This document shows positions 1-15,623 of a stretch of 37,708 nt of DNA, in pieces. The notes beneath the pieces are model-generated. The model saw only the letters and a program-made list of their open reading frames with translations. It made no database searches and had not been told where the DNA came from. The first letter of the stretch is position 1; each line of letters begins with the position of its first letter. This stretch comes from a virus, in IMG/VR virus record IMGVR_UViG_3300026255_000014, positions 1 to 37,708 of that record, one strand, 5' to 3'. The translations under genes and the position numbers were made by a program.

Positions 1-312
1 CCGTTTTGTGGGAGGACACCGAATCCAGACTGGACTGATGAGAGCTACATAGAGTGTACAAATCGTAAATGTTCTCTTTATGGTTATGGAATGAGTACAG
101 GCGACTGGAACACCCGCCCAATTGAGGATGACCTTCGCAAGCGCATTGCCGAGTTGGAGGCGCTTGTTAATGTGTCGGAAGGTCTTTACGAGCGTATCTA
201 TGAGCAAGCAGCCCGCATTGCCGAGCTGGAGGCGGAGATTGTCCAACTTACCGCTCACGATGCTACAGAGCGGCAAGATGATAAGTGGATACCGGAGGTG
301 CAGGATGTGTAA
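1..312 (+). CDS. Lar-like zinc-ribbon protein, 5' truncated by window edge; duplicate copy of 37306..37638
   Basis: ORF track 91..312 translation is identical to the C-terminal part of 37306..37638; the frame is open back to position 1. Confidence 0.5.
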   Translation, partial: PFCGRTPNPDWTDESYIECTNRKCSLYGYGMSTGDWNTRPIEDDLRKRIAELEALVNVSEGLYERIYEQAARIAELEAEIVQLTAHDATERQDDKWIPEVQDV

Positions 313-382
313 CTTTTTCAGTTTTGTAACAGACCCAGTGAATCACCCAGCGGAGTATTACTACTTCGACTGGGAATATCGC
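1..382. repeat. Terminal redundancy, left copy; identical to 37327..37708
   Basis: Direct comparison of the first and last 382 nt of the window shows identity; implies a unit genome of about 37,326 bp. Confidence 0.9.
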
Positions 383-1069
383 AAGGCGCACCTAAACGAC
401 GATGGAGTGGACAGCCATTCGCATATCTGTGCATACTACCTCCTCAACGAGGATAGATGTAACAAATATGAGTTCAATCCGCTGACTGGAAGATTTGATA
501 TTGACCAAATCAACTCGGAGCGTGATGATTCAAATGCTGCAGAAAAGTGGGCGAAACGGCAGGACTTCAAAGAGATTGTCGAGACACTTATTATCAAGCC
601 GATTGTCAAACCGTTTGAGTTGCCAAAGGTAGAACAAGTGACAGATGAACAAATTGGCTGGCTGAAGGAGTGGGCTTCGGTCAGGGATTTGGTCGGGGCT
701 TCGGTCTGGGCTTTGGTCGGGGATTCGGTCAGGGATTCGGTCTGGGCTTTGGTCGGGGTTTCGGTCAGGGATTTGGTCTTGGATTCGGTCAGGGATTTGG
801 TCGGGGCTTCGGTCTGGGCTTCGGTCAGGGCTTCGGTCAGGGATTTGGTCGGGGCTTCGGTCTGGGCTTCGGTCAGGGATTCGGTCTGGGCTTCGGTCTG
901 GGCATATATCAGCAGTTTTTTCGCCATCAACTACAAATACAACTTTTCGTCTGTAGCAAATCTTTGGAACGCAGGGCTTGTACCCTCATTTGACGGTGAG
1001 ACATGGCGGTTGCATAGCAGCGAGAATGCGGATGTGGTTTACGAGTGGACGCCGGAGGTGCAGGAATGA
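305..1069 (+). CDS. Hypothetical protein with internal tetrapeptide tandem-repeat array and C-terminal WTPEVQE tail
   Basis: Same frame as ORF 122..1069; likely start ATG 305 sits 5 nt after GGAGGTG and overlaps the upstream stop. Ends in the conserved junction CCGGAGGTGCAGGAATGA. Frame assignment through the repeat is ambiguous. Confidence 0.5.
   Translation: MCNFFSFVTDPVNHPAEYYYFDWEYRKAHLNDDGVDSHSHICAYYLLNEDRCNKYEFNPLTGRFDIDQINSERDDSNAAEKWAKRQDFKEIVETLIIKPIVKPFELPKVEQVTDEQIGWLKEWASVRDLVGASVWALVGDSVRDSVWALVGVSVRDLVLDSVRDLVGASVWASVRASVRDLVGASVWASVRDSVWASVWAYISSFFAINYKYNFSSVANLWNAGLVPSFDGETWRLHSSENADVVYEWTPEVQE
672..899. repeat. 19 tandem copies of a 12-bp unit GGGNTTYGGTCN
   Basis: Read directly from sequence. 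No stop codons in any forward frame, which is why ORFs 122..1069, 670..993 and antisense 436..930 all cross it. Confidence 0.9.
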
Positions 1070-1395
1070 ACACGCTTAAACCCTGCCCGTTTTGTGGGAG
1101 GACACCGAATCCAGACTGGACTGATGAGAGCTACATAGAGTGTACAAATCGTAAATGTTCTCTTTATGGTTATGGAATGAGTACAGGCGACTGGAACACC
1201 CGCCCAATTGAGGATGACCTTCGCAAGCGCATTGCCGAGTTGGAGGCGCTTGTTAATGTGTCGGAAGGTCTTTACGAGCGTATCTATGAGCAAGCAGCCC
1301 GCATTGCCGAGCTGGAGGCGGAGATTGTCCAACTTACCGCTGATAGCACAGACGAGCGGAAAGATGATAAATGGATACCGGAGGTGCAGGAATGA
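1066..1395 (+). CDS. Lar-family-like zinc-ribbon protein (putative restriction alleviation), paralog B
   Basis: N-terminus MNTLKPCPFCG...C..RKC is a CxxC/CxxC zinc ribbon resembling Lar family proteins, followed by a coiled coil. Near-identical to 37306..37638 except the last ~12 codons. ATG 1066 overlaps the upstream stop (ATGA). Confidence 0.6.
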   Translation: MNTLKPCPFCGRTPNPDWTDESYIECTNRKCSLYGYGMSTGDWNTRPIEDDLRKRIAELEALVNVSEGLYERIYEQAARIAELEAEIVQLTADSTDERKDDKWIPEVQE

Positions 1396-1670
1396 TACCC
1401 AAAATTTCCAAAATTGTTAGCTGTGTTTGCGGATGTCATTTGGTCAAATTTGAGAAATGGACGGACGATGAAGGTGCGTGGATGATGATCTATGAGAACT
1501 CTTTTTACTCGAAACAGGGTGGAAGAATCAGGTCATATCTGAAACGGCTATGGTCAGCAATTCGAGGAAAAGAATATTTGCTGATGGAAATCAGCATGTC
1601 AGACGAGGATACTGTTGGGCTAAGAAATGCACTAATCGAGGCTACAACACCGCCGGAGGAAATCCAATGA
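1392..1670 (+). CDS. Hypothetical small cysteine-containing protein
   Basis: ORF track 1371..1670 with internal ATG 1392 overlapping the upstream stop; contains CVCGC. Confidence 0.5.
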   Translation: MIPKISKIVSCVCGCHLVKFEKWTDDEGAWMMIYENSFYSKQGGRIRSYLKRLWSAIRGKEYLLMEISMSDEDTVGLRNALIEATTPPEEIQ

Positions 1671-2014
1671 ACCGGACATACGAGGAGTGGGTTGAGAAGG
1701 TGACGGACAGCAGCGCGGACATTGCGCTCGCGGACATGCTGGCGGACTGGCAGGCGGACATCATCCGGCGAATGAAGGCTGAGCACGCGCTGAATAAGCG
1801 CATTGCCGAGCTTGAGGCGGAAATTGACCAACTTACCGCTGATAGCACAGACGAGCGGAAAGATGATAAGTTACCTGAGCGGGAAGTGTGTGAAGCCTGT
1901 GGGGGCGATGGCACATTGCTTTTAGTAGACAACTATAAAGGGCAAGCAACTGCAACTGTGGATTGTCCGTATTGCAACGGCACTGGACGTGTAAACAAGG
2001 AGTGTGAGAAATGA
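1667..2014 (+). CDS. Hypothetical protein with coiled coil and DnaJ-type CxxCxGxG zinc finger
   Basis: Translation contains CEACGGDG and CPYCNGTG; the coiled-coil segment RIAELEAEIDQLTADSTDERKDDK is shared with the Lar paralog at 1066..1395. ATG 1667 overlaps the upstream stop. Confidence 0.55.
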   Translation: MNRTYEEWVEKVTDSSADIALADMLADWQADIIRRMKAEHALNKRIAELEAEIDQLTADSTDERKDDKLPEREVCEACGGDGTLLLVDNYKGQATATVDCPYCNGTGRVNKECEK

Positions 2015-2271
2015 GCGAACAAAAACATCCGGATGATATGACGCGTGAGGAGTTGATAACCCTCGTGTTTGCAATGAGCTGGGCGGCGTTGGATTTAGCA
2101 CAACACTTGGATTTTACAACAAAAATGCTGAAAGAAGAATATCGAAAAGAAGCTTACAAAAAAGCGACACGAATGGCATATGAACTTGTTTTTCTTTGGG
2201 AAGTAGAACCAGATGAGAATAAAAATTCGGGGATACTTATTTTTGGTGAAAATGGATTGGAGCACGGGTGA
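2011..2271 (+). CDS. Hypothetical protein
   Basis: ORF track; ATGA overlap with upstream gene. Confidence 0.5.
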   Translation: MSEQKHPDDMTREELITLVFAMSWAALDLAQHLDFTTKMLKEEYRKEAYKKATRMAYELVFLWEVEPDENKNSGILIFGENGLEHG

Positions 2272-2585
2272 GCAAGTCAGCGCTTGAAGCAGAGTTAGCC
2301 TTGCAGATCAAGGCGTTGGGCTTGCCAGAGCCGATTCGCGAATACCAGGCAATCAAGGGGCGCAAGTTCCGCTTTGACTTCGCTTGGCTTGAGCACAGGT
2401 TGCTGGTGGAAGTGAACGGCGGCACTTACACGAAGGGTGCTCACTCTACAGGTCGGGGCATTGCGCGAGACTACGAGAAGGCGAACCTGGCTACGCTTGA
2501 CGGCTGGCGCGTGCTGATGTTTGACGGCAAGGCGGTGAAGTCGGGTGTAGCGGTTGAAGTGATTAGACAGGCGTTGGAGGCGTGA
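2268..2585 (+). CDS. Putative PD-(D/E)xK-type endonuclease (DUF559/Vsr-like motif pattern)
   Basis: GTG start overlapping the upstream stop; pattern FRFDFAW...LLVEVNGG...H...RD...L...GW.VLMF recalled from DUF559-like nuclease domains. Confidence 0.45.
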   Translation: MSKSALEAELALQIKALGLPEPIREYQAIKGRKFRFDFAWLEHRLLVEVNGGTYTKGAHSTGRGIARDYEKANLATLDGWRVLMFDGKAVKSGVAVEVIRQALEA

Positions 2586-2586
2586 G

Positions 2587-2793
2587 ATGGGATTTTGGGA
2601 AGAGTTGTTTTATGTCATGAAAATAGGCACGGTGGTTACCGTGTGTGGGCTGTTGGCAAGTTTGCCGATAGCGTTTATAGTGCACCTCGCGATTGAAAGA
2701 GGGTCATGGTTGTTAGGTGTTCTGGCGTTCTTTGTACTTATAGCGATTGCGAGTATAGCGGTTGTTATCCAAGAACGGTTGGAGGCTGAATGA
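2587..2793 (+). CDS. Small membrane protein (two predicted TM helices)
   Basis: Hydrophobic segments VVTVCGLLASLPIAFIV and LLGVLAFFVLIAIASIAVV. Confidence 0.5.
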   Translation: MGFWEELFYVMKIGTVVTVCGLLASLPIAFIVHLAIERGSWLLGVLAFFVLIAIASIAVVIQERLEAE

Positions 2794-2993
2794 ACCTGAT
2801 TGATTTCCTAAGCGAAGAGGACGCGGAAAAGCGGATTGAGGTGCAAGAGCGAATTGACGATCTTAGTCGCATAGAGAGAGCGATGCTGCATTTGTGGGTG
2901 GAAGGGTACACCCAGGCAGAGATTGCGCACATGTTTGGTTACTCGCAAGCCAGAATAAGCCAAATACTCAATGCGATTTATAAAAGCTGCTGA
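2790..2993 (+). CDS. Putative HTH transcriptional regulator (sigma-70 region 4-like)
   Basis: C-terminal YTQAEIAHMFGYSQARISQIL resembles a sigma region 4 / LuxR-type helix-turn-helix. Confidence 0.45.
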   Translation: MNLIDFLSEEDAEKRIEVQERIDDLSRIERAMLHLWVEGYTQAEIAHMFGYSQARISQILNAIYKSC

Positions 2994-3021
2994 AAAGTGG
3001 CTGTAGTATATAGAGACCATT

Positions 3022-3225
3022 GTGGAAACTAAACGTTGTGTTTGTGGAAAAGTTATAACGAGCCAATTTGATCTTTGCAACAAGTGTCAAGCAGAATACG
3101 GGCTTGACCGTTCTAAGTGGGATGATTGGCTTATTTTCATGGTTGCCGACTTGAAGCGAGAGCGTCGCCAACAAGCAATCATTGACGAACGCGAAATCCC
3201 GTTTTCAGAATTAGGAATTTATTAA
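3022..3225 (+). CDS. Small zinc-ribbon protein
   Basis: GTG start; CVCG...CNKC motif. Confidence 0.45.
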   Translation: METKRCVCGKVITSQFDLCNKCQAEYGLDRSKWDDWLIFMVADLKRERRQQAIIDEREIPFSELGIY

Positions 3226-3238
3226 CTCGGAGGCTTGA

Positions 3239-3571
3239 ATGGAATTTGACGTAACACTTTTAGGAATCGTAATCGGAATGATGGTACTGGCTAACCGCTT
3301 GGTGGCAATGCTCATTACTCCGCTGTGGGATAAGTACGGCTGGGACAAATTCTGGCTGGCTTATCCGGCCTGGATTCTATCGGGCGTGTTCGTGTGGCTG
3401 ACTGAAGTCAACCTATTCGCCGCGTTTATCCCGAACGCGCTTATCGGTCAAATTCTGACTGCCATTGTTGCAGGGGGCGGGTCAAATTTGCTCCACGACC
3501 TAACTGACAAGCCATCCAATCTGATTGCCGTGTTTGATGCGCTTGAAGATTACGAGGACGCTAACGGATGA
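3239..3571 (+). CDS. Membrane protein, possible holin
   Basis: 110 aa with multiple hydrophobic helices and an acidic C-terminus; holin assignment is an inference from size and topology only. Confidence 0.4.
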   Translation: MEFDVTLLGIVIGMMVLANRLVAMLITPLWDKYGWDKFWLAYPAWILSGVFVWLTEVNLFAAFIPNALIGQILTAIVAGGGSNLLHDLTDKPSNLIAVFDALEDYEDANG

Positions 3572-3996
3572 GCGAGAACGTCTGGGTCGCAATCATAGCA
3601 GCGGTGCTGGGCGGAGGCGGCTTAGGCGCGGCTATTGTGAATGCGCTTGCTAACCGCAAGAAAATCCAGGCGGACTGTGTAGCAACGCTATCATCCGCAT
3701 ACGAAACGAGGATAAACGCTCTCAATAAGCGGGCGGATGAGTTGGCGGCGAAGGTGGACGTCTTAGAGGCGCAAGTCTGTGGCTTGCGTTCTGCATTGTC
3801 AGACAGGGAAGCAATGATTGTGAATTTGCAGCAGGAAAATGTTGATTTGCAGGCGCAAGTGGACAAGTTGAGCAAGGTGGTCAACAACAAGGATAAGCGT
3901 ATTCGGGAATTAGAGCGACAGGTCGCTGACCTGACCACGCGTCTTAATGCGATGAATGGTGGAAGCGGTGAGGCTTGGCTCGGTGGTACTGATTGA
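3568..3996 (+). CDS. Membrane-anchored coiled-coil protein
   Basis: N-terminal TM segment WVAIIAAVLGGGGLGAAIV followed by a long heptad-rich region. Confidence 0.5.
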   Translation: MSENVWVAIIAAVLGGGGLGAAIVNALANRKKIQADCVATLSSAYETRINALNKRADELAAKVDVLEAQVCGLRSALSDREAMIVNLQQENVDLQAQVDKLSKVVNNKDKRIRELERQVADLTTRLNAMNGGSGEAWLGGTD

Positions 3997-4059
3997 CTTC
4001 AAGGGCGGACGTGAGTGCCTGTGGACGTACTCTCGCTTACTTGAAAAGACGAGGATTAT

Positions 4060-4233
4060 TTGGAAACGATCAAATTTGATGCAGTAGTTTATAAATTACA
4101 GACATTGGCTGACGGTGGAATCAGAATCACGCTTGATATGAGCGAGACCTCGATTCCTCAAATGGCAATGTTAGCAGAAACCAAACGACAGGGTTTGGCT
4201 CTTTCGTTTGAAGCGAAGGCGAGCGGCAGTTAG
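4060..4233 (+). CDS. Possible small ORF (57 aa, TTG start)
   Basis: Hand translation of otherwise empty DNA between 3996 and 4237; no motif support. Confidence 0.2.
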   Translation: METIKFDAVVYKLQTLADGGIRITLDMSETSIPQMAMLAETKRQGLALSFEAKASGS

Positions 4234-4236
4234 TTT

Positions 4237-4584
4237 ATGGCTTATGCGCCAGCAAGACAATGTGTTGTGCCAGGATGTCCGAATCTTGTGACAGAGCCTG
4301 GTGTTAGCCGTTGTCCAGAACATCAAAAACAATACAAAAAAGAGTTGACAAGACCGCGTGATGTCAAATACACGAGTCAACGATGGCGCAAGACCTCGAA
4401 GGTGTTTTTGAGTCGCAATCCAATTTGTGAACGTTGTGGTGAGCCGAGTGAGATCGCACACCACATTATTCGTAAGCGTGATGACGGGGCAGACGACTTC
4501 GACAATCTGGAAGCACTTTGCCGAAAGTGTCATGAAGCCGAACATCATGCAAGCGGTGAAAGGTGGGGTAGGCGTGCGAGGTAG
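4237..4584 (+). CDS. HNH homing-type endonuclease
   Basis: CxxC...CxxC plus HH..RKRDDG...N...LC..CH arrangement typical of the HNH fold; canonical position just upstream of the terminase small subunit. Confidence 0.8.
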   Translation: MAYAPARQCVVPGCPNLVTEPGVSRCPEHQKQYKKELTRPRDVKYTSQRWRKTSKVFLSRNPICERCGEPSEIAHHIIRKRDDGADDFDNLEALCRKCHEAEHHASGERWGRRAR

Positions 4585-5071
4585 AACGCCATTGCCAGAT
4601 GCTTTGAAAGAAGCACAGGGAACGCTGAAGAAGAGCCGAGTAAATGACTCTCAGGCTCGTTTTGACGTACCTAAAGACTCACCGAAACCGCCGACAACGC
4701 TCAATCTCTATGGCAAGCGGTTGTGGAAAGAAATGCTGCCAAAGTTGGTTGAAACAGGTCTTTATACCGAAGGTGATCACCAGGCGTTTGAATTGCTTTG
4801 CATGGCTTATGGTGATCTGATTCAGGCACGCAAAGACCTTAAAGAGTCGGGTACGATTGTTATCACAGACAAGGGCACGGTTTATCAGCACCCTAACGTT
4901 GGGATCGCAAACCAGGCTTGGAATCGGGTGAAACTGATGTTGGGGCAGTTTGGGCTGACACCAGCAGAGCGGACACGAGTAAAAGCACGCTCACCCGAAG
5001 AGAAAAGGGGCAGTTTGGCAGAATCGTTGTTTGCTGCTGCACGTGAAAAGGTTGAGGGTGAGACTGAGTGA
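4574..5071 (+). CDS. terS: Terminase small subunit (P27-family-like)
   Basis: Motif GQFGLTPAERTRVKA and N-terminal RGRTPLP resemble P27-family TerS. Start uncertain: GTG 4574 follows an AGGTGGGG SD; ATG 4547 and 4532 are in-frame alternatives. Confidence 0.7.
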   Translation: MRGRTPLPDALKEAQGTLKKSRVNDSQARFDVPKDSPKPPTTLNLYGKRLWKEMLPKLVETGLYTEGDHQAFELLCMAYGDLIQARKDLKESGTIVITDKGTVYQHPNVGIANQAWNRVKLMLGQFGLTPAERTRVKARSPEEKRGSLAESLFAAAREKVEGETE

Positions 5072-6375
5072 GTGCAAATCTGTATTTAGGTGACTGTCTG
5101 GAAGTCTTATCAACGCTTGAAGCGGATAGCATTGACACCTGCATCACTGACCCGCCTTACGAGTTAGGTTTCATGGGTAAGAAGTGGGATTCAAGCGGCA
5201 TTGCGTTCCAGCCTGAAACTTGGCAAGCCGTATTCAGGGTGCTGAAACCAGGTGCAATTCTGCTTGCCTTCGGCGGCACTCGCACCTATCACCGCATTGC
5301 TTGCGCTATTGAGGACGCTGGCTTTGAAATCCGTGACACTATCGCTTGGGTATACGGGAGCGGATTCCCTAAAAGTTACGACATAAGTAAGGGAATTGAC
5401 AAACAAGCTGGAGCTGAAAGGGAAATAGTAGGCTACAAGGAAACATCAACTTATCCAGATAGCGATGGTGTTGCTCATTACAAAAACAGGCAACAAAGCA
5501 ATGGTTCTCAAGTCAATACAGGAGGTATGCCAGAAATCACCGCGCCCTCCACCCCCGAAGCGCAACTCTGGGATGGCTGGGGCACGGCGTTGAAGCCTGC
5601 CTTTGAGCCGATAGTTGTTGCGATGAAGCCGATTGACGGCACGTTTGTCAACAACGCGCTCACTTGGGGCGTGGCTGGCTTGTGGATTGACGGGGGTAGG
5701 GTGGGGACGTCAAAAAACGTTCCTGCATCACCAAGCGATAAAGGCACTCTGCAATGTAAAGGTTTGGGCGGTGGATGGGATAGAAGCGGAATGAATCCGA
5801 ACATTGGTCGCTTCCCTGCCAACTTGATTCACGACGGCTCGGATGAGGTGGTGAGTGGGTTTCCGAATACTACGAGCGGCAAGGTTGCGGCTGGAACTAT
5901 GCGAGGCTTGAAAAGCAATCACAATGTGGCATACGCAGACATCGCCGCCGGAACTGAATTGACTGGCTACGGCGACTCTGGCTCAGCCGCGCGCTTTTTC
6001 TACTGTGCGAAAGCCAGCCGAAGCGAGCGCAACGCTGGGCTGGAGGGGATGGAAGAAAAGGTCGGCGGTGGAATGAAGGGCACGGAAGACCAAACGCTTT
6101 TGACTGGCTCTGGAAACATCCGCAACAATAAAATGCAAAACCACCATCCCACCGTCAAGCCAATCGAACTGATGCGCTACCTTGTTCGGCTTACCAAAAC
6201 GCCAACAGGCGGGGTGGTACTTGACCCGTTCATGGGGTCTGGCACGACTGGCATTGCTTGCGTGTTGGAAGGACGCGAGTTTATCGGAATTGAGCGGGAA
6301 GCGGAGTATGTCGAGATTGCAGAAAAGCGGATTGCGCATTACAGGTTGCCGATATTGGAAGAAGTGATCGAGTGA
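5068..6375 (+). CDS. DNA methyltransferase (N6-adenine/N4-cytosine, beta-class order)
   Basis: N-terminal DPPY (ITDPPYELGF) and C-terminal AdoMet motif LDPFMGSGTTGIA. Confidence 0.85.
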   Translation: MSANLYLGDCLEVLSTLEADSIDTCITDPPYELGFMGKKWDSSGIAFQPETWQAVFRVLKPGAILLAFGGTRTYHRIACAIEDAGFEIRDTIAWVYGSGFPKSYDISKGIDKQAGAEREIVGYKETSTYPDSDGVAHYKNRQQSNGSQVNTGGMPEITAPSTPEAQLWDGWGTALKPAFEPIVVAMKPIDGTFVNNALTWGVAGLWIDGGRVGTSKNVPASPSDKGTLQCKGLGGGWDRSGMNPNIGRFPANLIHDGSDEVVSGFPNTTSGKVAAGTMRGLKSNHNVAYADIAAGTELTGYGDSGSAARFFYCAKASRSERNAGLEGMEEKVGGGMKGTEDQTLLTGSGNIRNNKMQNHHPTVKPIELMRYLVRLTKTPTGGVVLDPFMGSGTTGIACVLEGREFIGIEREAEYVEIAEKRIAHYRLPILEEVIE

Positions 6376-8966
6376 AAAAGTACGATCCCTGGAATTGCGA
6401 CCTTGATAAGTACGAATTTGACCCTGTGGCTGGGCAGGTTGCAGTCGACTTTATTGAAAATTATATTACCCATGTCAAAGGGGAGTTAGGCGGCAAGCCT
6501 TTTTTGCTTTTGGAGTGGGAAAAGGATTTTGTAAGAAACCTTTTCGGTTGGAAAGAAAAGGAAACAGGTTATCGGCGTTACCGTGAGGCGTTTGTATTTG
6601 TGGCACGGAAAAATGGCAAAGCATTAGAAGTCAATACTCCGATTCTGACTACTACAGGTTGGAAGAAACACGGCGATTTAGTCCCTGGAGACTTTGTTTT
6701 TTCTCCTGATGGCGTACCCGCAAAGGTTATCTATTCTACTCCTCATTATGAGGGGAATTGTTATTTTGTGGATTTCTCAGGCGATGAAGCAATTATCGCT
6801 CACGAAAATCACGAATGGAAAACTAACCGCACCTGGTATACAGGAAAGCCCAAATGGATAGAAGGTGAAAAGCCTTTGGTTACCACTAAGCGGATTGCGG
6901 AAACTCTACGATGTGGGAAACGCCAAGACCTTGTGCATTCTGTGGATGTTGCGAAACCGATACAGTTTGAGCCAAAAGAATACACAATACCCCCGTATGT
7001 TTTAGGCGTTTGGCTTGGCGATGGCGACTCTGACAGTTGCAGGATCACGATTGCAGAACCTGAAATTGTCCAGAAGCTATCTGATTATGGTTATCCAGCC
7101 GAATATAGATCAAGATACCGACACCTTGTTGGACGGGGGAAGTTTCAAAAGCAACTGCGTGAAAAGGGCTTACTGGGCAATAAGCATATACCACAAGAAT
7201 ACTTGCTTGGTTCAGTTGAGCAAAGGATCGACCTCTTGCGCGGATTGATGGACACAGACGGTTATGTGTCTTCGGCTGGACAATGCGGAATTGCATTAAC
7301 CGACGGTAATTTGTTTCGCCAAGTTGTCGAATTAATTACAGGCTTGGGATTAAAGCCTCGCGTAATGATTGATCGTGCTCAGTTAAATGGGGTTGACTGC
7401 GGAGTTAGATATAGAGTCCACTTCTATGCCTATCAAGACACGCCAATAGCATATATTGAGCGAAAAGCCAAACGGCAAAAAGAAACTCCAAAAACAAGGC
7501 GGCGCAGCCAGACTCGGATGATTTCAAATGTTACGCCCGCAGGTAAGCAAACAGTCAACTGCATCACAGTCGAAGGCGGGATGTATCTCGCAGGAAAGCA
7601 ACTTATCCCAACTCACAACTCACCTCTTGGGGCTGCCATCGCGCTTTATCTGTTGATTGTAGACAATGAGCCTGGTGCAGAGTTGATCTCTGTAGCAGCA
7701 GACCGAGACCAGGCACGGGCGATTTTTGACACGGCTCGTTTTATGGTAAAGCAAAACGCCGCCCTGGACGAATTGGTTAGTGCATATCGAAATGCGATTG
7801 TCGCTAAGCAAGGGGCTTCAGTTTACAAAGTTGTTTCATCGGATGCTGGCACTAAGCATGGTGGAAACTTACATGCTGCGCTTTTTGACGAGTTGCACGC
7901 TCAGAAGAACCGAGACCTTTACGATGTTGTGCAAACCAGTTTTGGCGCGCGCCGTCAACCACTGCTGATTTCTTTTAGTACGGCAGGGTTTGATCGTGAG
8001 TCGATCTGCTATGAAGTTTACTCAATGGCAAAGCAGATTTCTGAGGGCATAATCCAGCGAGATTGGTTTTACCCCGTAATATACGAGGCATCGCCAGAAG
8101 ACGATTGGACAAGCGAAGATACGTGGAAGAAAGCCAATCCGAGTTTGGGACACTCGATCAAGATTGATTACCTGCAGAAGAATTATGAAAAGGCTCTATC
8201 AAGCCCGCAGTTCCAAAACACTTTCAAGCGTTTGTATCTCAATATGTGGACATCGGCAGAAACACGCTGGCTTGATATGCAAAACTGGGACAAATGCGGT
8301 GAGCAACCGATTGACATGGGACTGCTTGAAGGGGCTGAATGTTACGGCGGTCTTGACCTTGCGACAGTTTCTGACATTGCTGCTTTTGTACTGGATTTCC
8401 CGAATGAAAGCGGTGAAGAGGAATTGCACACCTGGCTTCCGACCTTGTTCTGTCCAGAGTCAAAGTTGACCGACCCAGGTTTCATTGACCGCGACATTTA
8501 CAGGGCTTGGGCTGACCAGGGCTATTTGATTGCAACGCCTGGAAACGTGATTGACTACGAGTACATCATTGCTGAAATTGAGCGATTAGGTGAACTTTAC
8601 AACATTAAAGAGATCGCATTTGACCGTTGGGGTGCTGCACAGATTTCACAAACGCTTACCAATATGGGCTTTACTTTGGTTGGTTTTGGTCAAGGGTACG
8701 TGAGCATGTCACCACCCACAAAAGAAGTTGAGCGGTTGATATTACAAGGCAGGGTGAGACATGGAAACCACCCTGTAATGCGTTGGATGGCGGATAACGT
8801 TATGGTTACGACTGACCCTGCAGGGAATATCAAGCCAGACAAGAAGAAAAGCAGGCAGAAGATTGACGGCGTGGTTGCGGCAATCATGGCAACCGATAGG
8901 GCAATTAGAAATTCTGTAGGTCGCAAGGACTCTGTTTACGAAAAAAGAGGGTTGGTTGTTCTATGA
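6372..8966 (+). CDS. terL: Terminase large subunit, interrupted by an in-frame intein
   Basis: 864 aa; removing residues 84..416 yields the P-loop ARKNGKS and a Walker B-like LLIVDNE with a C-terminal nuclease-like domain. GTG start overlaps the upstream stop. Confidence 0.9.
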   Translation: MKKYDPWNCDLDKYEFDPVAGQVAVDFIENYITHVKGELGGKPFLLLEWEKDFVRNLFGWKEKETGYRRYREAFVFVARKNGKALEVNTPILTTTGWKKHGDLVPGDFVFSPDGVPAKVIYSTPHYEGNCYFVDFSGDEAIIAHENHEWKTNRTWYTGKPKWIEGEKPLVTTKRIAETLRCGKRQDLVHSVDVAKPIQFEPKEYTIPPYVLGVWLGDGDSDSCRITIAEPEIVQKLSDYGYPAEYRSRYRHLVGRGKFQKQLREKGLLGNKHIPQEYLLGSVEQRIDLLRGLMDTDGYVSSAGQCGIALTDGNLFRQVVELITGLGLKPRVMIDRAQLNGVDCGVRYRVHFYAYQDTPIAYIERKAKRQKETPKTRRRSQTRMISNVTPAGKQTVNCITVEGGMYLAGKQLIPTHNSPLGAAIALYLLIVDNEPGAELISVAADRDQARAIFDTARFMVKQNAALDELVSAYRNAIVAKQGASVYKVVSSDAGTKHGGNLHAALFDELHAQKNRDLYDVVQTSFGARRQPLLISFSTAGFDRESICYEVYSMAKQISEGIIQRDWFYPVIYEASPEDDWTSEDTWKKANPSLGHSIKIDYLQKNYEKALSSPQFQNTFKRLYLNMWTSAETRWLDMQNWDKCGEQPIDMGLLEGAECYGGLDLATVSDIAAFVLDFPNESGEEELHTWLPTLFCPESKLTDPGFIDRDIYRAWADQGYLIATPGNVIDYEYIIAEIERLGELYNIKEIAFDRWGAAQISQTLTNMGFTLVGFGQGYVSMSPPTKEVERLILQGRVRHGNHPVMRWMADNVMVTTDPAGNIKPDKKKSRQKIDGVVAAIMATDRAIRNSVGRKDSVYEKRGLVVL
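6621..7619 (+). mobile_element. Intein (333 aa) with LAGLIDADG homing endonuclease domain inside the TerL Walker A motif
   Basis: Begins ALEVNTPILT, contains LGVWLGDGDS and LLRGLMDTDGYV, ends ...LIPTHN followed by Ser; splicing restores ARKNGK|SPLG. Confidence 0.8.
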
Positions 8967-9172
8967 GTTTATTTGGATGGTTTGCAGAATTGAGACCAGT
9001 TATTGTCAACACAAAGTTTGGCAAGGATTTCAGGGGCGTTGTTTGGAAGAAAACAAACGACTGCATCGTTCTGAAAAACGCAGAGTGGTTGTCGCCTGAT
9101 GGGGCGAAAAAACTGGATGGTGAAACAATCATCTTCATCAAAGAAATCGAATTTATACAGGCGGTCTCATGA
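8963..9172 (+). CDS. Hypothetical protein
   Basis: ORF track; ATGA overlaps with both TerL and portal. Confidence 0.5.
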   Translation: MSLFGWFAELRPVIVNTKFGKDFRGVVWKKTNDCIVLKNAEWLSPDGAKKLDGETIIFIKEIEFIQAVS

Positions 9173-11115
9173 CAACGATTATTTCAGAAACTAACCTAAT
9201 AACGATGCCAGCGAATTGGTGGACAAACGCAAACAACATCACGCTTTCATCGGTGCGATCCGATTACAACTTCGATTATTTGGCGATGTACAGGAATCAC
9301 ATGAACGTGAGGATTTGCGTTGATTTCCTGGCTCGAAATATCGCTCACCTGGGGCTGCACGTTTACACGCGAAAAGAAGACAATGACAGAGAGCGATTGC
9401 GAGACCACAGGGCGGTACAAATTCTGAAACAACCGCTGCCGGCAAAGTTTAAGGTGACACAGTTCCAACTGGTTGAATCGGCAGTCGCAGACATGCTGAT
9501 CAGCGGTAATGGTTATTTACTCAAACACAGAAACGGTGAGGGTGAGATCATCGCGCTTCAGCGTGTGCCTTATATGCTTATGAGTGTCAAGGGCGAGTTA
9601 GTTCCTACGAAATACAAAATTGGCTATATCGAGAAAGAGTACAAGCCAGAAGATATTATCCATTTTCGATTTTACAACCCTGAGAACTCTACCATCGGCG
9701 TTTCACCGCTTGAAGGTTTGCGCGAAGTGTTGGCTGAAGAATGGGAAAAGTCGAAGTACAGTTCTGGTTTCTGGCGGAATGCCGCTCGTATTTCTGGTGT
9801 GATCGAAAGACCGCTGGAAGCAAAAGAAATGAGCGAAGCAGCAGCACGCAACTTCCGTCAGCAATGGCAGGAAATGTATGCAGGTGAAGACAACAGCGGC
9901 AAGACTGCTTTGTTGGAAGAGGGCATGGTTTTCAAACCGATGTCGTTCAGCCCGAAAGAAACTGAGTATATCGAGAGCAGAAAACTAAACCGAGAAGAAT
10001 GCGCGAGAGCATATCACATCCCCCCGCCAATGGTCGGAATTTTAGATCGCAGTACGTTCTCGAACATTACCGAGTTGCACAAGTCGCTTTACATGGATGT
10101 GCTTAGTCCAATGTGTGCCAGACTTGAGGACGATTGGGATTTGCAGTATTTGAGTGAGTTCAAAGATTTGAAGGGCGCATACACTGAGTTCAATATTGAC
10201 GAAAAACTACAGTCTGATTTCAGTATGCAACTTGAGTCACTACGGCAGTCTGTGGGCGTGCCTTACATGACACCGAACGAAGGTCGTGCGATTCTGAACC
10301 TTCCACGTTTGAAGAACCCCCTGGCTGACACCCTGGTTACCCCTCTCAATATGGCAACCCCTGAAATGGTTATGCGACAACAACAGAACAAAAGTGAAAT
10401 GCCAATAATTGAGACTAAGGCATCGGCTGAGTCTATCATGCCAGAATATCCCGACCTGGACAAAGACTTTGGTGAGAAATGGCACAAGTTGATGGTGAAC
10501 GTTTTTACACGCCAGAGAGACGCAGTGTTACCAAAAGCGAAGATGGACAAGTTGGATGTGCTTTGGGACAAAGAGCGTTGGGACAGGGAAGTCGCTGAGG
10601 ACTTTCTGAAACTTGCGGAAGAAACCGCCTGGGCTTATGCGGATGCTTTTGCAGGGCAGTTAGGCGCAGAGTACAAGCGCGAGTGGATGGAAAAATGGTT
10701 GCAGGAAAACTCCAGGATTGCCGCTGAATATATCAACGCCAGCACCTACGACCAGCTCGCAAAGGCGATGCAGGGTGAAAATCCAGTTGACGCAATCAAA
10801 GAGGTGTTTGCGTCAGCATTGGCGGTAAGAGCGGTGCAATTGGCTGAGGATCGCCGCGCGATGGTGGAAAGTTATGTTGAAGCAAAGATTGCAGATGCGG
10901 TTGATTCCGTTATCGGGAAGATTTGGACAGTTAGAAGCAACAACCCCCGCCCAGAACACGAGAAGATGAATGGCGAGTTTATTGAGAAAAGGGAAGTGTT
11001 TTCAAACGGACTACAGTACCCACGAAGTTACAAGGGTAGTGCTAAAGACAATGCCAACTGTAAATGTAAGGTGATGTGGGTCAGAAAACCTGTAGACACC
11101 ACGCCTTTGAGGTGA
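9169..11115 (+). CDS. Portal protein with C-terminal MuF-like (minor head protein) domain
   Basis: Central region resembles HK97-family portals; C-terminus carries RPEHEKMNGEF, a MuF-like motif. Confidence 0.75.
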   Translation: MTTIISETNLITMPANWWTNANNITLSSVRSDYNFDYLAMYRNHMNVRICVDFLARNIAHLGLHVYTRKEDNDRERLRDHRAVQILKQPLPAKFKVTQFQLVESAVADMLISGNGYLLKHRNGEGEIIALQRVPYMLMSVKGELVPTKYKIGYIEKEYKPEDIIHFRFYNPENSTIGVSPLEGLREVLAEEWEKSKYSSGFWRNAARISGVIERPLEAKEMSEAAARNFRQQWQEMYAGEDNSGKTALLEEGMVFKPMSFSPKETEYIESRKLNREECARAYHIPPPMVGILDRSTFSNITELHKSLYMDVLSPMCARLEDDWDLQYLSEFKDLKGAYTEFNIDEKLQSDFSMQLESLRQSVGVPYMTPNEGRAILNLPRLKNPLADTLVTPLNMATPEMVMRQQQNKSEMPIIETKASAESIMPEYPDLDKDFGEKWHKLMVNVFTRQRDAVLPKAKMDKLDVLWDKERWDREVAEDFLKLAEETAWAYADAFAGQLGAEYKREWMEKWLQENSRIAAEYINASTYDQLAKAMQGENPVDAIKEVFASALAVRAVQLAEDRRAMVESYVEAKIADAVDSVIGKIWTVRSNNPRPEHEKMNGEFIEKREVFSNGLQYPRSYKGSAKDNANCKCKVMWVRKPVDTTPLR

Positions 11116-11126
11116 AAGGAATAATT

Positions 11127-11735
11127 ATGAAAATGGAAAAGAAATCATTTGAAACCGAACTTGAGTTCAAAGAAAACGCCGATGAGACTGGTCAATTCAA
11201 GGCAGTGTTCAGTTGGTTTGATGTAATTGACAAACACGGTGATGTTACCTTGCCAGGGGCGTTTGAGGAAGGGGCGAAAGTCAAGATTGCTTCCTGGGGG
11301 CATCGGTGGGAAAACCTGCCTGTTGGTCGCGGTGAAGTCCACCAGGATGAAGAGAAAGCCTGGGTGGACGGTAAGTTTTTCCTTGATACTGAAGCGGGTC
11401 TTGAAACCTACAAGACCGTCAAAAATCTTGGTGAGTTACAAGAGTGGTCGTATGGATTCGAGACCATTGACTCATCCGAGGATAAGAAAGACGGACGGAC
11501 AGTGCGAGTGTTGAAGAAACTCAAAACTTTCGAGGTGTCGCCTGTATTTATTGGTGCAGGGAACGACACTCAAACTTTAGCCATTAAGAGCGAGGGCGAA
11601 GAGTCTGAGCCAGAAGTGGAGCAGGAAGTCAAAACTGAATCAGAGACCGTGGAAGTCGGGAATGAGAGCGGCGTTGATCCTGCTGACATGAAATTACTAA
11701 TCGAAATAATTGCTTTGGAGGCAAAACATGAATAA
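11127..11735 (+). CDS. Prohead protease (HK97 family)
   Basis: Pattern DVIDKHGDVTLPGAF...SWGH...SYGF...FEVSPV. Start ATG 11127 chosen inside ORF 11076..11735. Confidence 0.75.
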   Translation: MKMEKKSFETELEFKENADETGQFKAVFSWFDVIDKHGDVTLPGAFEEGAKVKIASWGHRWENLPVGRGEVHQDEEKAWVDGKFFLDTEAGLETYKTVKNLGELQEWSYGFETIDSSEDKKDGRTVRVLKKLKTFEVSPVFIGAGNDTQTLAIKSEGEESEPEVEQEVKTESETVEVGNESGVDPADMKLLIEIIALEAKHE

Positions 11736-13020
11736 CGAAAAATTTATGAATCTTTTGGGCGATGCCCGTGAGATTGTTGAAAAGGCTCTTGTTGAGGGTC
11801 GCCCTATGACAGAGGACGAGCGCAATAAGTCCATGAACATGGTAGAAGAAGCCAAACAAGGTCTTGATGACGTTGCTTTGGAACGCAAGATCGCTGAACT
11901 TCAGGCTGCTGCCGCAAAGGGCAAAGAAGAAGAAACCCAAGAGGAAGTAAAAGGCAGTATGGGTGAACGCTTTGCTCAGAGCAAGGCATACAAAGCCTGG
12001 ATGAAACAGGTTGCTCCCAACGGTCACATTCCTGAGAGTGCGAAGGGCATCAATTCCCCCGCTTTCCAGGTCGACATGCCGTTTGAAAAGAAAGCCGTTC
12101 TTACTGGCGCATCTGCCACTTCTGGCGGCGCGTTCATTCAGAACGACGACACTGGCATTTACGTTCCTATGGGACGCAAACCGCTGAAGTTGCGCGACCT
12201 GATCAGCGTCCGTAGTACCAATAGCGACATGGTTGAGTTTGTTCGCCAGACTGCACAGGTTACCCAGGCGGCTGGCGTTGCTGAAGCGACTTCTGCTGCC
12301 GCCCCTACAGTTGTCACAACTGCGACTGGTAATCCAACGCTGGTCTATACCAGCACTGTGACTAACAACGCAGGTGGCGGTTACAAACCCGAAGGCGCAA
12401 TGGCTTTTGAAAAAGTTACCGCTCCCGTGGAAACCGTTGCAGTATGGATTCCTGTAACCAAACGCGCTCTGGCTGACGCAGCTCAATTGCGCGGAATTAT
12501 TGACCAGGAATTGCGCGACTCTCTCATGGATGAGATCGAAACCAACATCCTGTTTGGGCAAGCCACTCCCGATTTTGTCGGTTTGGCTGAAACGCCGAAT
12601 ATTTTGAGCCAGGCTTTTAGCACCAACATTCTGACTACTGCCCGTAAAGCCATCACTAATTTGGCGACAAACGGTTTGGAAGCCAGCCCCACCGCATTCG
12701 TGGTTGCACCTGCCGATTGGGAAGCGGTTGAGTTAGCTCTCTTTGCTGCCGCACCGTACCTGCCTTATCAGCAATCCATGTGGCGTATTCCTGTGGTTGA
12801 GTCACAGTATCTCACCGCTGGTACTGCCTATTTGGGCAACTGGAAACAGGCGGTTATGTGGGATCGCCAGCAGGTCACTATCAGCGTAAGCGATAGCCAT
12901 GCTGATTTCTTCATCCGCAACCTGGTTGCAGTGCTTGCTGAGGCTCGTGCAGCTTTCGGTGTGCTGAAACCAAAGTCCTTTGTTGAGATCGCTACCGCCG
13001 CAAGCGGCAGCCCATCTTAG
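11728..13020 (+). CDS. Major capsid protein (HK97 fold) with N-terminal delta/scaffold-like coiled coil
   Basis: ATG 11728 preceded by GGAGG; ~100-aa charged coiled-coil N-terminus followed by a capsid-like body; followed by a strong terminator. Confidence 0.85.
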   Translation: MNNEKFMNLLGDAREIVEKALVEGRPMTEDERNKSMNMVEEAKQGLDDVALERKIAELQAAAAKGKEEETQEEVKGSMGERFAQSKAYKAWMKQVAPNGHIPESAKGINSPAFQVDMPFEKKAVLTGASATSGGAFIQNDDTGIYVPMGRKPLKLRDLISVRSTNSDMVEFVRQTAQVTQAAGVAEATSAAAPTVVTTATGNPTLVYTSTVTNNAGGGYKPEGAMAFEKVTAPVETVAVWIPVTKRALADAAQLRGIIDQELRDSLMDEIETNILFGQATPDFVGLAETPNILSQAFSTNILTTARKAITNLATNGLEASPTAFVVAPADWEAVELALFAAAPYLPYQQSMWRIPVVESQYLTAGTAYLGNWKQAVMWDRQQVTISVSDSHADFFIRNLVAVLAEARAAFGVLKPKSFVEIATAASGSPS

Positions 13021-13037
13021 GCTTAGTTGATTGATTA

Positions 13038-13063
13038 GGGCGGGGGCGATTTCGCCCCCGCCC
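13038..13063 (+). terminator. GC-rich hairpin downstream of the capsid gene
   Basis: GGGCGGGGGCG-ATTT-CGCCCCCGCCC perfect 11-bp stem, with a T-run at 13074..13078. Confidence 0.6.
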
Positions 13064-13078
13064 TGAGAGGAAGTTTTT

Positions 13079-13285
13079 ATGGTTGAAAAAGACGTAATGG
13101 TGATCGTCCCGATTGGCGAGTACGAAGGCATCAAGATGTGGCGGTCTGAGGCTGAAAAGCAAGGGCTGAAATACAAGGTGATCGGCAAAGAGTATGTCCC
13201 TGAGATCGAGGACAAAATGGTCGAGCCTGTGGAAGATAAGGCTCTGCCGAAAAAGACCACAAGACGGAAAACTACGAAGAAGTAG
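13079..13285 (+). CDS. Hypothetical protein (basic C-terminus)
   Basis: ORF track; RBS GAGAGGAAG upstream. Confidence 0.5.
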   Translation: MVEKDVMVIVPIGEYEGIKMWRSEAEKQGLKYKVIGKEYVPEIEDKMVEPVEDKALPKKTTRRKTTKK

Positions 13286-13292
13286 GTGAGGA

Positions 13293-14670: not shown

Positions 14671-14672
14671 CT

Positions 14673-15125: not shown

Positions 15126-15129
15126 CAAC

Positions 15130-15606: not shown

Positions 15607-15623
15607 TTAGAAAGGAATAAATA

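What the first reader, a model, noticed from the sequence alone, without database searches (positions are those of the whole stretch)
1066..1395. Near-identical ~270-bp direct repeat formed by two Lar-like paralogs flanking the repeat-protein gene
The body of 1066..1395 matches 37306..37638 (equivalent to the copy truncated at 1..312) almost base for base; I saw one synonymous change (CCCTGCCCG versus CCCTGTCCG). The 3' ends then diverge (ADSTDERKDDK versus AHDATERQDDK). Two such copies about 750 bp apart are substrates for homologous recombination that would delete the intervening gene 305..1069; the divergent tails suggest gene conversion or recent duplication.
Basis: seen in the sequence. 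Interest (0 to 1): 0.6.

Follow-up and report, generated by a model that had tools for sequence, protein, structure and literature searches.

The report
Recombination-made gene duplication in a phage
Two almost identical copies of a small zinc-finger gene really do flank another gene in this phage genome, they were put there by recombination at short sequences shared between neighbouring genes, and an otherwise base-for-base identical phage lacking exactly one copy plus the gene in between exists in nature; this is a clear example of an ordinary process.

Summary
Window 37290..37581 and 1050..1341 are a 292-nt direct repeat with one synonymous mismatch. The exact core is 255 nt and the copies start 1086 nt apart. 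The window ends overlap exactly (1..382 = 37327..37708), so copy A is also seen at 1..312.

The repeat starts at an 18-nt gene-junction motif, CCGGAGGTGCAGGAATGA, which holds a Shine-Dalgarno sequence and an ATGA stop/start overlap. It ends in a coiled-coil-coding segment. Both motifs recur at module boundaries across this early region and in related phages.

Public assemblies hold the other forms: one copy and no intervening gene; an unrelated upstream gene with tail A, then the intervening gene and copy B; and the two-copy form. One one-copy contig matches the window at all 11,093 compared bases and lacks exactly the 1086-nt unit.

The body-to-tail-A joint maps to a 13-nt identical core within a 41/44-identical stretch. 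The phage encodes an ERF annealing protein and SSB.

Best reading: recombination between co-circulating phage lineages made the duplication, and the repeat is now a gain/loss polymorphism. "Lar-like" holds only for the N-terminal zinc ribbon and falls below curated thresholds. This is a new example of known phage mosaicism, of moderate interest.

The parts
37290..37581 (+). Direct repeat, copy A (shared block). It runs from the junction motif to the end of ...CAACTTACCGCT. The wrap-around duplicate of its exact core is window 1..255.
   Evidence: 291/292 identical to 1050..1341
1050..1341 (+). Direct repeat, copy B (shared block).
37306..37638 (+). ORF 'LarA', 110 aa: RalR/Lar-like zinc ribbon, coiled coil, then tail A (..LTAHDATERQDDKWIPEVQDV*). 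Its 3' part is also present as window 1..312.
   Evidence: The identical protein is found on 5 contigs.
1066..1395 (+). ORF 'LarB', 109 aa: same body, tail B (..LTADSTDERKDDKWIPEVQE*).
   Evidence: The identical protein is found on 9 contigs.
243..255 (+). 13-nt identical core CCAACTTACCGCT (= 37569..37581, also 1329..1341). The joint between the Lar body and tail A maps here. It lies inside a 44-nt stretch (212..255) that is 41/44 identical to the donor-type gene.
   Evidence: L017 is identical to the window over 243..2645 and differs at 228, 237 and 242. L041 is identical up to 37581.
256..312 (+). Tail A (= 37582..37638): a 12-nt variable hinge patch, the conserved ERQDDKWIPEVQ segment and the stop. 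It overlaps the start of the next gene by 8 nt.
   Evidence: The same tail follows unrelated N-termini in L006, L009, L011, L014, L017 and L029.
305..1069 (+). Intervening gene, 254 aa, function unknown. It contains a 12-nt (tetrapeptide) tandem array and ends in ..EWTPEVQE* at a junction motif.
   Evidence: No hit in Pfam, PHROGs, NCBIfam, PADLOC or PDB.
671..903 (+). Tandem repeat array inside the intervening gene (basic unit 12 nt; also reported with periods 24, 36 and 48).
   Evidence: (family D1)
1342..1395 (+). Tail B of copy B.
   Evidence: The stretch 1300..1370, which includes it, is 96% identical to 1799..1869 (family D6).
1799..1869 (+). Tail-B-like coiled-coil and hinge segment inside gene 1667..2014. 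In that gene it is followed by a DnaJ-type CxxCxGxG zinc finger rather than a stop.
37107..37124 (+). Junction motif J (CCGGAGGTGCAGGAATGA) between the DUF551-like gene and the 62-aa gene.
37292..37309 (+). Junction motif J between the 62-aa gene and LarA. It is the left boundary of repeat copy A.
292..309 (+). Variant junction motif (CCGGAGGTGCAGGATGTG; = 37618..37635) between LarA and the intervening gene.
   Evidence: (family D10)
1052..1069 (+). Junction motif J between the intervening gene and LarB. It is the left boundary of repeat copy B.
1378..1395 (+). Junction motif J between LarB and the 92-aa gene.
1..382 (.). Terminal overlap of the contig (identical to 37327..37708). The genome unit is 37,326 bp. 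Position 1 is the first base of the exact repeat core, and 382 = 255 + 127.
33294..33953 (+). ERF-family single-strand annealing protein, the phage's own recombinase.
   Evidence: PF04404, 98.2 bits against a cutoff of 25
36387..36746 (+). Single-strand DNA-binding protein.
   Evidence: PF00436, 86.7 bits

Best explanation
The 292-nt direct repeat consists of two copies of a small early gene. The gene encodes a RalR/Lar-like zinc ribbon followed by a coiled coil. Homology-guided recombination between co-circulating relatives of this phage placed one copy on each side of a 254-aa gene of unknown function.

This early region is built from interchangeable modules separated by short DNA segments conserved across otherwise unrelated genes:
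- a coiled-coil segment (CGCATTGCCGAGCTKGAGGCGGA..CAACTTACCGCT);
- a hinge (GAGCGGMARGATGATAAR);
- an 18-nt gene junction (CCGGAGGTGCAGGAATGA), which is also the ribosome-binding site and the ATGA stop/start overlap for the next gene.

The left edge of the repeat is the junction motif. The right edge is the end of the coiled-coil segment. The Lar body was joined to 'tail A plus the intervening gene' by a crossover in a 13-nt identical core within a 41/44-identical stretch.

Two routes to the two-copy state fit the data, and they cannot be told apart:
- that same non-allelic crossover, between a genome of the type 62aa-Lar-92aa and one of the type X(tailA)-gene-Lar-92aa;
- an ordinary crossover inside the shared intervening gene, between a Lar(tailA)-gene-other genome and an X(tailA)-gene-Lar genome.

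Once present, the two copies are substrates for single-strand annealing or homologous recombination, most likely by the phage's own ERF protein with SSB. That reaction removes exactly 1086 nt. The locus therefore segregates in nature as a presence/absence polymorphism in an otherwise identical genome.

Shown directly: the repeat, its boundaries, the modular contexts, the breakpoint interval and the isogenic one-copy form.
Inferred: the direction of each event (gain or loss), the role of ERF, and any function of the genes.
For: 1. Repeat and boundaries.
2. The same architecture appears in independent assemblies that differ from the window by SNPs. These are L039 (ERZ773285, SPAdes, coverage 233) and L040 (JGI 3300026311).
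3. L033 (1077 nt, window 133..1209, the same contig in 3 samples) runs from position 133 of one core copy to position 123 of the next. That is what an unbranched k=123 unitig would give (my inference), implying that in those samples the intervening gene has the Lar body on both sides.
4. One-copy relatives are L041, L042, L043, L044 and L020. L041 has 0 mismatches over 10,276 nt on the left and 817 nt on the right and lacks exactly the 1086-nt unit.
5. L017/L027 carries a 74-aa unrelated gene with tail A, then the intervening gene, then LarB. It is 100% identical to window 243..2645 and differs only at 228, 237 and 242. This places the joint in CCAACTTACCGCT.
6. The SNP at Lar nucleotide 21 follows the upstream context: T in 10 of 10 contigs after the 62-aa gene, C in 6 of 7 after the intervening gene.
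7. In the fetched loci the junction motif links 10 upstream contexts to 14 downstream contexts in 17 combinations. The coiled-coil motif links 17 upstream to 11 downstream contexts. The same zinc ribbon, coiled coil and hinge are found followed by a stop, by a DUF551 domain or by a DnaJ-type zinc finger in relatives.
8. All six GGAGGTG on the + strand lie between 36953 and 1380.
9. The phage encodes ERF and SSB. In a lambda-based assay, ERF-family and other Rad52-like phage recombinases recombined identical and 22%-diverged substrates about 20- and 100-fold better than the RecA pathway (PMC3945230, read).
Against: - All evidence comes from short-read metagenome assemblies. No single read or molecule has been shown to span both copies.
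- The direction of change cannot be determined from the data. The one-copy form could be the ancestor or a deletion derivative. One-copy and two-copy genomes interleave when ranked by SNP distance.
- The lineage inference rests on one SNP.
- A 13-nt core is short for a homologous crossover. The joint could have formed long ago and spread by ordinary recombination.
- The junction motif may be conserved mainly because it is a strong ribosome-binding site, not because it guides recombination.
- No experiment links ERF to these events.
Confidence: 0.78

Rival explanations
1. In-place tandem duplication within one genome, for example unequal exchange between sister genomes at the junction motifs. 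The tails then diverged, and gene conversion keeps the bodies identical.
For: - The copies are direct, close together, and bounded on the left by the repeated junction motif.
- In L040 the two copies are 100% identical over the 292 nt, which suggests conversion.
Against: - Tail A plus the intervening gene is present at 100% identity behind unrelated genes in other phages.
- Tail B is shared with gene 1667..2014.
- The tails differ by a block substitution of 12 nt flanked by conserved sequence, not by scattered point changes.
- The SNP follows the upstream context across 17 copies.
- An in-place duplication does not explain how a foreign 765-nt gene came to lie between the copies.
Confidence: 0.08
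2. Assembly artefact. The second copy, or the linkage of the two copies in one genome, was created by the assembler threading through a mixture of strains that share the 829-nt segment 243..1071.
For: - The window starts exactly at the first base of the 255-nt exact core, and its terminal overlap is 255 + 127 nt. This shows that the assembly graph was shaped by the repeat.
- In JGI sample 3300026290 the region is split into contigs overlapping by 127 nt (L024 and L034).
- Several arrangements co-circulate.
Against: - The Lar-body/tail-A joint shares only 13 nt with the alternative context, so it cannot be produced by any k above 13.
- Any genome with that joint and the intervening gene needs the Lar body upstream.
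- L033 is an unbranched contig from core to core across the gene, found in 3 samples.
- The two-copy path was recovered by different assemblers in at least 4 data sets, each with its own SNPs.
Confidence: 0.05
3. The intervening gene with tail A is an autonomous mobile cassette (homing or transposition), and the duplicated Lar body is its target-site duplication.
For: - The cassette appears in many contexts with identical ends (tail A on the left, junction motif on the right).
- The family is very large: at least 3300 homologues.
Against: - The cargo has no nuclease, transposase or recombinase signature in Pfam, PHROGs, NCBIfam, PADLOC or PDB sequences.
- No inverted repeats were found in the window.
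- A 292-nt 'target duplication' is far longer than transposition produces.
- The duplication is absent in most contexts of the cassette.
- The structure model is too poor to exclude a hidden fold (pLDDT 46).
Confidence: 0.05

Closest known systems
Mosaicism of temperate and lambdoid phages through relaxed homologous recombination by Rad52-like annealing proteins (Red-beta, RecT, Erf); De Paepe et al. 2014, PMC3945230. Also the Susskind-Botstein 'linker sequence' idea of modular exchange (own knowledge).
   Same: - Exchange occurs between related phages at short, partly diverged homologies.
- The phage carries its own ERF-family recombinase.
- Breakpoints lie at conserved segments between modules.
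- That paper also reports frequent exchange of segments of about 100 bp within genes.
   Different: - Here the conserved segments lie inside coding sequence (a coiled coil and the last codons of the upstream gene), not in intergenic DNA.
- They shuffle protein domains as well as whole genes.
- The outcome includes a duplication inside one genome. The cited paper notes that phage genomes usually lack repeated sequences.
- No recombination assay has been done for this phage.
Deletion between direct repeats by single-strand annealing or replication slippage (general recombination biology, own knowledge).
   Same: - Two direct copies of 292 nt start 1086 nt apart.
- A natural variant lacks exactly one repeat unit plus the spacer in an otherwise identical background.
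   Different: Only the two end states are seen. The event itself, its rate and its direction have not been observed.
RalR (formerly Lar) of the E. coli Rac prophage; Pfam PF14354 Lar_restr_allev; TIGR03655.
   Same: The N-terminal 45 residues or so share KPCPFCG, a second Cys pair and WNxR. A profile of 10 relatives aligns to RalR residues 5..54 with hhalign probability 95.7%.
   Different: - Scores are below both curated cutoffs: 21.5 against 28.6 bits and 15.8 against 39.6 bits.
- The protein is 109 to 110 aa with a coiled-coil extension that the 64-aa RalR lacks.
- No antisense RalA-like RNA was detected.
- The function is untested.
Promoter-early stem-loop (PeSL) sequences flanking shuffled small genes in T4-type phages (own knowledge; not checked in the paper library).
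   Same: Short repeated sequences flank small early genes of unknown function and are proposed to mediate their gain, loss and exchange.
   Different: PeSLs are intergenic promoter and terminator elements. Here the repeated element is an in-frame ribosome-binding site with a stop/start overlap, plus a coiled-coil-coding segment.

Membership tests
Lar / RalR restriction-alleviation family (PF14354, TIGR03655) | Score at or above the curated family cutoff | tested here: not met
   PF14354: 21.5 and 21.2 bits against a cutoff of 28.6. TIGR03655: 15.8 and 15.9 bits against 39.6. PHROG 'Lar-like' families: E about 1e-3.
Lar / RalR restriction-alleviation family (PF14354, TIGR03655) | Zinc-ribbon signature: KPCPFCG, a second Cys pair, then WNxR | tested here: met
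   C7, P8, F9, C10, G11, C26, C31, W43 and R46 are invariant in 10 relatives. The profile aligns to RalR 5..54 with hhalign probability 95.7%.
Lar / RalR restriction-alleviation family (PF14354, TIGR03655) | Small single-domain protein of about 60 aa | tested here: not met
   109 to 110 aa. Residues from about 47 to the end are a coiled coil plus hinge that RalR (64 aa) lacks.
Lar / RalR restriction-alleviation family (PF14354, TIGR03655) | Alleviates type I restriction, or acts as a DNase toxin | not testable with these tools
   Needs an experiment. RefSeq names E. coli b1348 'endodeoxyribonuclease toxin RalR'.
Duplication made by non-allelic homologous recombination | Repeat boundaries coincide with sequences that pre-exist at both parental sites | tested here: met
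   The left boundary is the junction motif present at 5 consecutive gene junctions. The right boundary is the end of the coiled-coil segment shared with the donor-type gene.
Duplication made by non-allelic homologous recombination | Parental or reciprocal arrangements exist | tested here: met
   One-copy contigs: L041, L042, L043, L044, L020. Cassette behind another gene: L017/L027. Lar(tailA) then the gene then another gene: L025, L030.
Duplication made by non-allelic homologous recombination | A recombinase able to use short or diverged homology is available | tested here: met
   ERF at 98.2 bits and SSB at 86.7 bits. The property of ERF-family proteins is taken from PMC3945230; it was not tested for this protein.
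Phage modular exchange at conserved boundary ('linker') sequences | The same short DNA segment lies between many otherwise unrelated flanks | tested here: met
   Junction motif: 10 upstream by 14 downstream contexts. Coiled-coil motif: 17 by 11 contexts.
Phage modular exchange at conserved boundary ('linker') sequences | The segments are conserved because they guide recombination, beyond their coding or ribosome-binding role | tested here: inconclusive
   The junction core GGAGGTG is a perfect Shine-Dalgarno sequence 5 nt upstream of the ATG (sequence). Translation alone could therefore explain its conservation.
Transposon or homing-element insertion with target-site duplication | Cargo encodes a transposase or nuclease, and the element has terminal inverted repeats | tested here: not met
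   No family hit for the 254-aa protein. No inverted repeats in the window. The structure model is uninformative.
Assembly artefact (collapsed or expanded repeat, or strain chimera) | The arrangement is found in one assembly only, or can be explained by k-mer sharing | tested here: not met
   Found in at least 4 independent data sets and with 2 assemblers. The joint shares only 13 nt with the alternative context. L033 is an unbranched core-to-core contig.

The most novel reading that the evidence does not exclude
The coiled-coil, hinge and junction segments may be more than leftovers of shared ancestry. They could form a selected, homology-based cassette-exchange system. In-frame 'adapter' sequences would double as ribosome-binding sites and coiled-coil linkers. 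Together with the phage's ERF recombinase they would let a community of sludge phages recombine zinc-ribbon, DUF551, DnaJ-finger and repeat-protein modules combinatorially. The result would be a fast-evolving repertoire of early genes, possibly for counter-defence, with duplications such as this one as by-products.
Probability: 0.15. Interest if true: 0.65.

Novelty: new member of a known kind. Interest (0 to 1): 0.35.

Why it matters
Whether phage mosaics arise by homologous exchange at short conserved boundary sequences or by illegitimate recombination followed by selection is an old debate. This locus is an unusually complete natural example of the first route:
- the breakpoint is narrowed to 13 nt;
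- the candidate parental forms, the recombinant and the one-copy form are all present in public data;
- one pair of contigs differs by nothing except the 1086-nt unit.

The locus also shows domain-level shuffling of small early proteins through an in-frame coiled-coil linker. It is a ready test case for measuring ERF-dependent deletion and gene exchange.

It does not reveal a new kind of system.

Tried and rejected
- blastn of window 1..3000 against 50,697 GenBank phage records found no match. There are no cultured relatives to compare with.
- Pfam, PHROGs, NCBIfam, PADLOC and PDB-sequence searches of the 254-aa intervening protein found nothing.
- An AlphaFold2 model of that protein from 36 homologues had mean pLDDT 46 and pTM 0.35. 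It was too poor for a fold search, so none was run.
- Rfam on window 1..2200 gave only a chance-level lncRNA hit: 17 bits against a cutoff of 70. The repeat carries no known RNA element.
- The genome-contig scan for a host found the intervening gene only in metagenome bins labelled Omnitrophota, Dehalococcoidia or 'bacterium'. The host remains unknown.
- The metagenome-contig scan with a 35-mer from the repeat core added only three contigs. Exact-protein look-ups were much more productive.
- I tried to polarise gain versus loss using SNP distances among two-copy and one-copy genomes. The states interleave and the differences are clustered patches, so no direction can be assigned.
- I considered that the 382-nt terminal overlap is a physical terminal repeat. 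I rejected this in favour of an assembly signature. The contig starts at the first base of the 255-nt exact core and 382 - 255 = 127, a common k value. Two JGI contigs that are 100% identical to the window overlap by 127 nt.
Full report
**1. The observation**

The window is a circularly closed contig.

An in-register comparison shows that 37290..37581 and 1050..1341 are identical at 291 of 292 positions. The only difference is 37326 T versus 1086 C, a synonymous Cys codon. The exact core is 255 nt. The identity starts 16 nt upstream of both ATG codons.

Downstream of ...CAACTTACCGCT the two copies differ in a 12-nt block. They then share GAGCGG[C/A]AAGATGATAA[G/A]TGGATACCGGAGGTGCAGGA and end differently. 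Both are intact ORFs of 110 and 109 aa. Between them lies a 254-aa ORF (305..1069) containing a 12-nt tandem array at 671..903.

**2. Is it an artefact?**

The contig starts exactly at the first base of the 255-nt exact core, and the terminal overlap is 255 + 127 nt. The assembly graph was therefore clearly shaped by the repeat. Even so, the architecture is real, for four reasons.

- The joint between the Lar body and tail A shares only 13 nt with the alternative context, so no assembler k-mer could create it.
- The same two-copy order occurs in the middle of a 46-kb SPAdes contig (L039, ERZ773285, coverage 233) and in an 18-kb JGI contig (L040, 3300026311). These differ from the window by 4 and 11 substitutions in the left flank and by further clustered differences elsewhere.
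- A 1077-nt contig found in three samples (L033) matches window 133..1209 at 100%. It runs from position 133 of one core copy to position 123 of the next. By my inference that is what an unbranched k=123 unitig between the last and first 123-mers of the core would look like. In those samples the intervening gene would then have the Lar body on both sides with no alternative context.
- Two JGI contigs from sample 3300026290 are 100% identical to the window over 34306..401 and 275..1310.

**3. Anatomy of the region**

Five consecutive gene junctions carry CCGGAGGTGCAGGAATGA, or in one case the variant CCGGAGGTGCAGGATGTG. They lie at 37107, 37292, 292, 1052 and 1378. The exact motif occurs 4 times against 0.04 expected.

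The motif encodes ..PEVQE*. It contains a perfect Shine-Dalgarno sequence, GGAGGTG, 5 nt before the ATG of the next gene, and that ATG overlaps the stop as ATGA. All six GGAGGTG on the + strand of the whole genome lie between 36953 and 1380.

A second recurring element is a coiled-coil-coding segment (..AAGCGCATTGCCGAG..). It is present twice in each Lar copy, once in the DUF551-like gene 36756..37124 and once in gene 1667..2014 (families D6 and D7). The 71 nt that include tail B (1300..1370) are 96% identical to 1799..1869. There the same hinge is followed by a DnaJ-type CxxCxGxG zinc finger instead of a stop.

The left edge of the 292-nt repeat is the junction motif. The right edge is the end of the coiled-coil segment.

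**4. Relatives**

Pattern searches in IMG/VR, exact-protein look-ups and one metagenome scan retrieved about 30 distinct contigs. The two titled records come from a bioreactor metagenome and an activated-sludge metagenome. The contigs show four arrangements.

- (i) 62aa gene, Lar(tail B), 92aa gene, with no intervening gene: L041, L042, L043, L044, L020.
- (ii) An unrelated 74-aa gene ending in tail A, then the intervening gene, LarB and the 92aa gene: L017/L027. L021 also shows the intervening gene followed by LarB.
- (iii) The two-copy form: the window, L039, L040, L033, and L024 with L034.
- (iv) Lar with tail A, then the intervening gene, then some other gene: L025 and L030. L028 and L031 are a related variant in which the upstream Lar carries the tail-B hinge.

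More distant phages (L001, L004, L010, L013, L014, L029, L037, L038) carry the same zinc ribbon, coiled coil and hinge. In them these are followed by a stop, by a DUF551 domain (WIPVSERLPE...) or by the DnaJ-type finger. They also attach the same tails to unrelated N-termini, including the end of a 444-aa methyltransferase in L012.

Across the fetched loci the junction motif joins 10 distinct upstream contexts to 14 downstream contexts in 17 combinations. The coiled-coil motif joins 17 upstream to 11 downstream contexts.

**5. Breakpoint and lineage marker**

L017 is identical to the window from 243 to 2645 and differs at 228, 237 and 242. Leftwards of 212 it is unrelated. L041 is identical to the window up to 37581, which equals 255. 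The joint between the Lar body and tail A therefore lies in the 13-nt CCAACTTACCGCT (243..255). This core sits within a 44-nt stretch that is 41/44 identical between the two parental contexts.

The single SNP follows the upstream neighbour and not the tail. Lar copies after the 62-aa gene have T in 10 of 10 contigs. Copies after the intervening gene have C in 6 of 7. The exception, L040, has T in both copies, which fits a conversion event. The two copies in the window therefore look like alleles from two lineages, not products of an in-place duplication.

**6. The one-copy form**

L041 (ERZ27268607, a 30-kb contig) matches the window at all 10,276 bases from 27306 to 37581 and at all 817 bases from 1342 to 2158. 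The two stretches are directly joined in L041. It is the window genome minus exactly 1086 nt: tail A, the intervening gene, and one repeat copy.

This is the product that recombination between the copies would give. It is equally what the parent of an insertion would look like. Other two-copy genomes are less similar to the window than L041 is, and other one-copy genomes lie at intermediate distances. The state has therefore changed more than once, or moves by ordinary recombination, and the direction cannot be assigned.

**7. Mechanism**

The phage encodes an ERF-family annealing protein (98 bits) and an SSB (87 bits) a few kilobases upstream. The rest of the genome is a tailed-phage set: HNH, small and large terminase, portal and an S78 protease. 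It also carries three DNA methyltransferases.

In a lambda-based assay an ERF/exonuclease pair recombined identical and 22%-diverged substrates as well as lambda Red. It did so about 20- and 100-fold better than the RecA pathway. The same paper notes that phage genomes usually lack internal repeats (PMC3945230).

I therefore infer that annealing-type recombination during mixed infection made the joints, and that the same activity deletes between the copies. This step is inference; nothing here measures it.

**8. Gene identities**

The 'Lar-like' label is only partly justified. Both copies score below the curated cutoffs of PF14354 (21.5 against 28.6) and TIGR03655 (15.8 against 39.6). A profile of ten N-terminal modules aligns to E. 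coli RalR (formerly Lar; sequence taken from NC_000913) with hhalign probability 95.7%. The alignment matches KPCPFCG, the second Cys pair and WNxR. The C-terminal 60 residues are a coiled coil that RalR lacks.

The intervening protein has at least 3300 homologues. All that carry a source name are 'hypothetical', and none has a Pfam domain. Lengths among the listed hits mostly differ from 254 aa by multiples of 4 aa, as expected from gain and loss of 12-nt units. The protein matched no library, and its model is unreliable.

**9. Verdict**

The fuller picture is a recombination hotspot of small early genes. Short conserved in-frame segments sit at module boundaries, and one outcome is this duplication. 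This is a well-documented new example of known phage mosaicism and direct-repeat instability, not a new kind of element.

Noticed in passing
window 305..1069 (array 671..903): The intervening 254-aa protein belongs to a very large unannotated family. At least 3300 homologues have E <= 1e-3, and no listed hit has a Pfam domain. Lengths among the listed hits mostly differ from 254 aa by multiples of 4 aa (202, 206, 214 ... 270), which implies frequent gain and loss of the 12-nt (xSVx tetrapeptide) unit. Even the near-identical relative L025 has 246 aa. Conserved N- and C-terminal domains flank the array.
   Followed up: partly
window 1..382 and 37327..37708: The terminal overlap starts at the first base of the 255-nt exact repeat core, and its length is 255 + 127. 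This looks like a k=127 assembly-graph signature rather than a physical terminal repeat.
   Followed up: partly
window 36953..1395 (wrapping): All six GGAGGTG on the + strand of the genome lie in this one cluster. Five are at consecutive gene junctions. The sixth is in-frame inside the DUF551-like gene (ELPEV).
   Followed up: yes
window 2309..2568 and 34377..34399: Differences between the window and the 99%-identical relatives L039 and L040 are clustered in short patches. The patches lie inside the 105-aa DUF559-like gene (2268..2585) and near the start of the MT-A70 methyltransferase gene. These look like small recombination tracts rather than point mutations.
   Followed up: partly
L039 (ERZ773285 NODE_1410, 46,103 bp): This contig is 8.8 kb longer than the 37,326-bp genome unit. 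By position it would wrap round the circle (window about 25,000 through the origin to about 33,800). This is consistent with a circular or circularly permuted genome, or with an assembly running through two strain variants.
   Followed up: no
L039 gene list; window MT-A70 at 34018..34980: The phage carries three DNA methyltransferase genes. MT-A70 was checked in the window. Methyltransf_24, and an N6_N4_Mtase lying between the small and large terminase genes, were seen in the 99%-identical L039. There are also several small zinc-finger early genes, which suggests heavy investment against restriction.
   Followed up: no
window 27329..28112, 15169..16115, 22063..22530: Other internal direct repeats occur in the structural half of the genome. 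They are 59- to 205-nt units at 62 to 88% identity (27.3 to 28.1 kb), a 284-nt plus 141-nt pair at 73 to 77% (15.2 to 16.1 kb), and a tandem 234-nt pair at 82% (22.06 to 22.53 kb). They probably encode repeated domains in tail or fibre proteins.
   Followed up: no
L038 (activated-sludge contig NODE_18285), 2242..3438: A more distant phage carries two diverged copies of the same zinc-ribbon module about 0.9 kb apart. The second has tail A and is directly followed by the repeat-protein gene. Several Lar-like paralogues per genome, and the adjacency of Lar with tail A to the repeat gene, are therefore recurrent in this phage group.
   Followed up: partly
L030 952..1053 and L014 4829..4945: In some relatives the gene after the repeat-protein gene is a tiny ORF (33 to 38 aa) that looks like a transmembrane segment by eye, instead of a Lar-like gene.
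   Followed up: no
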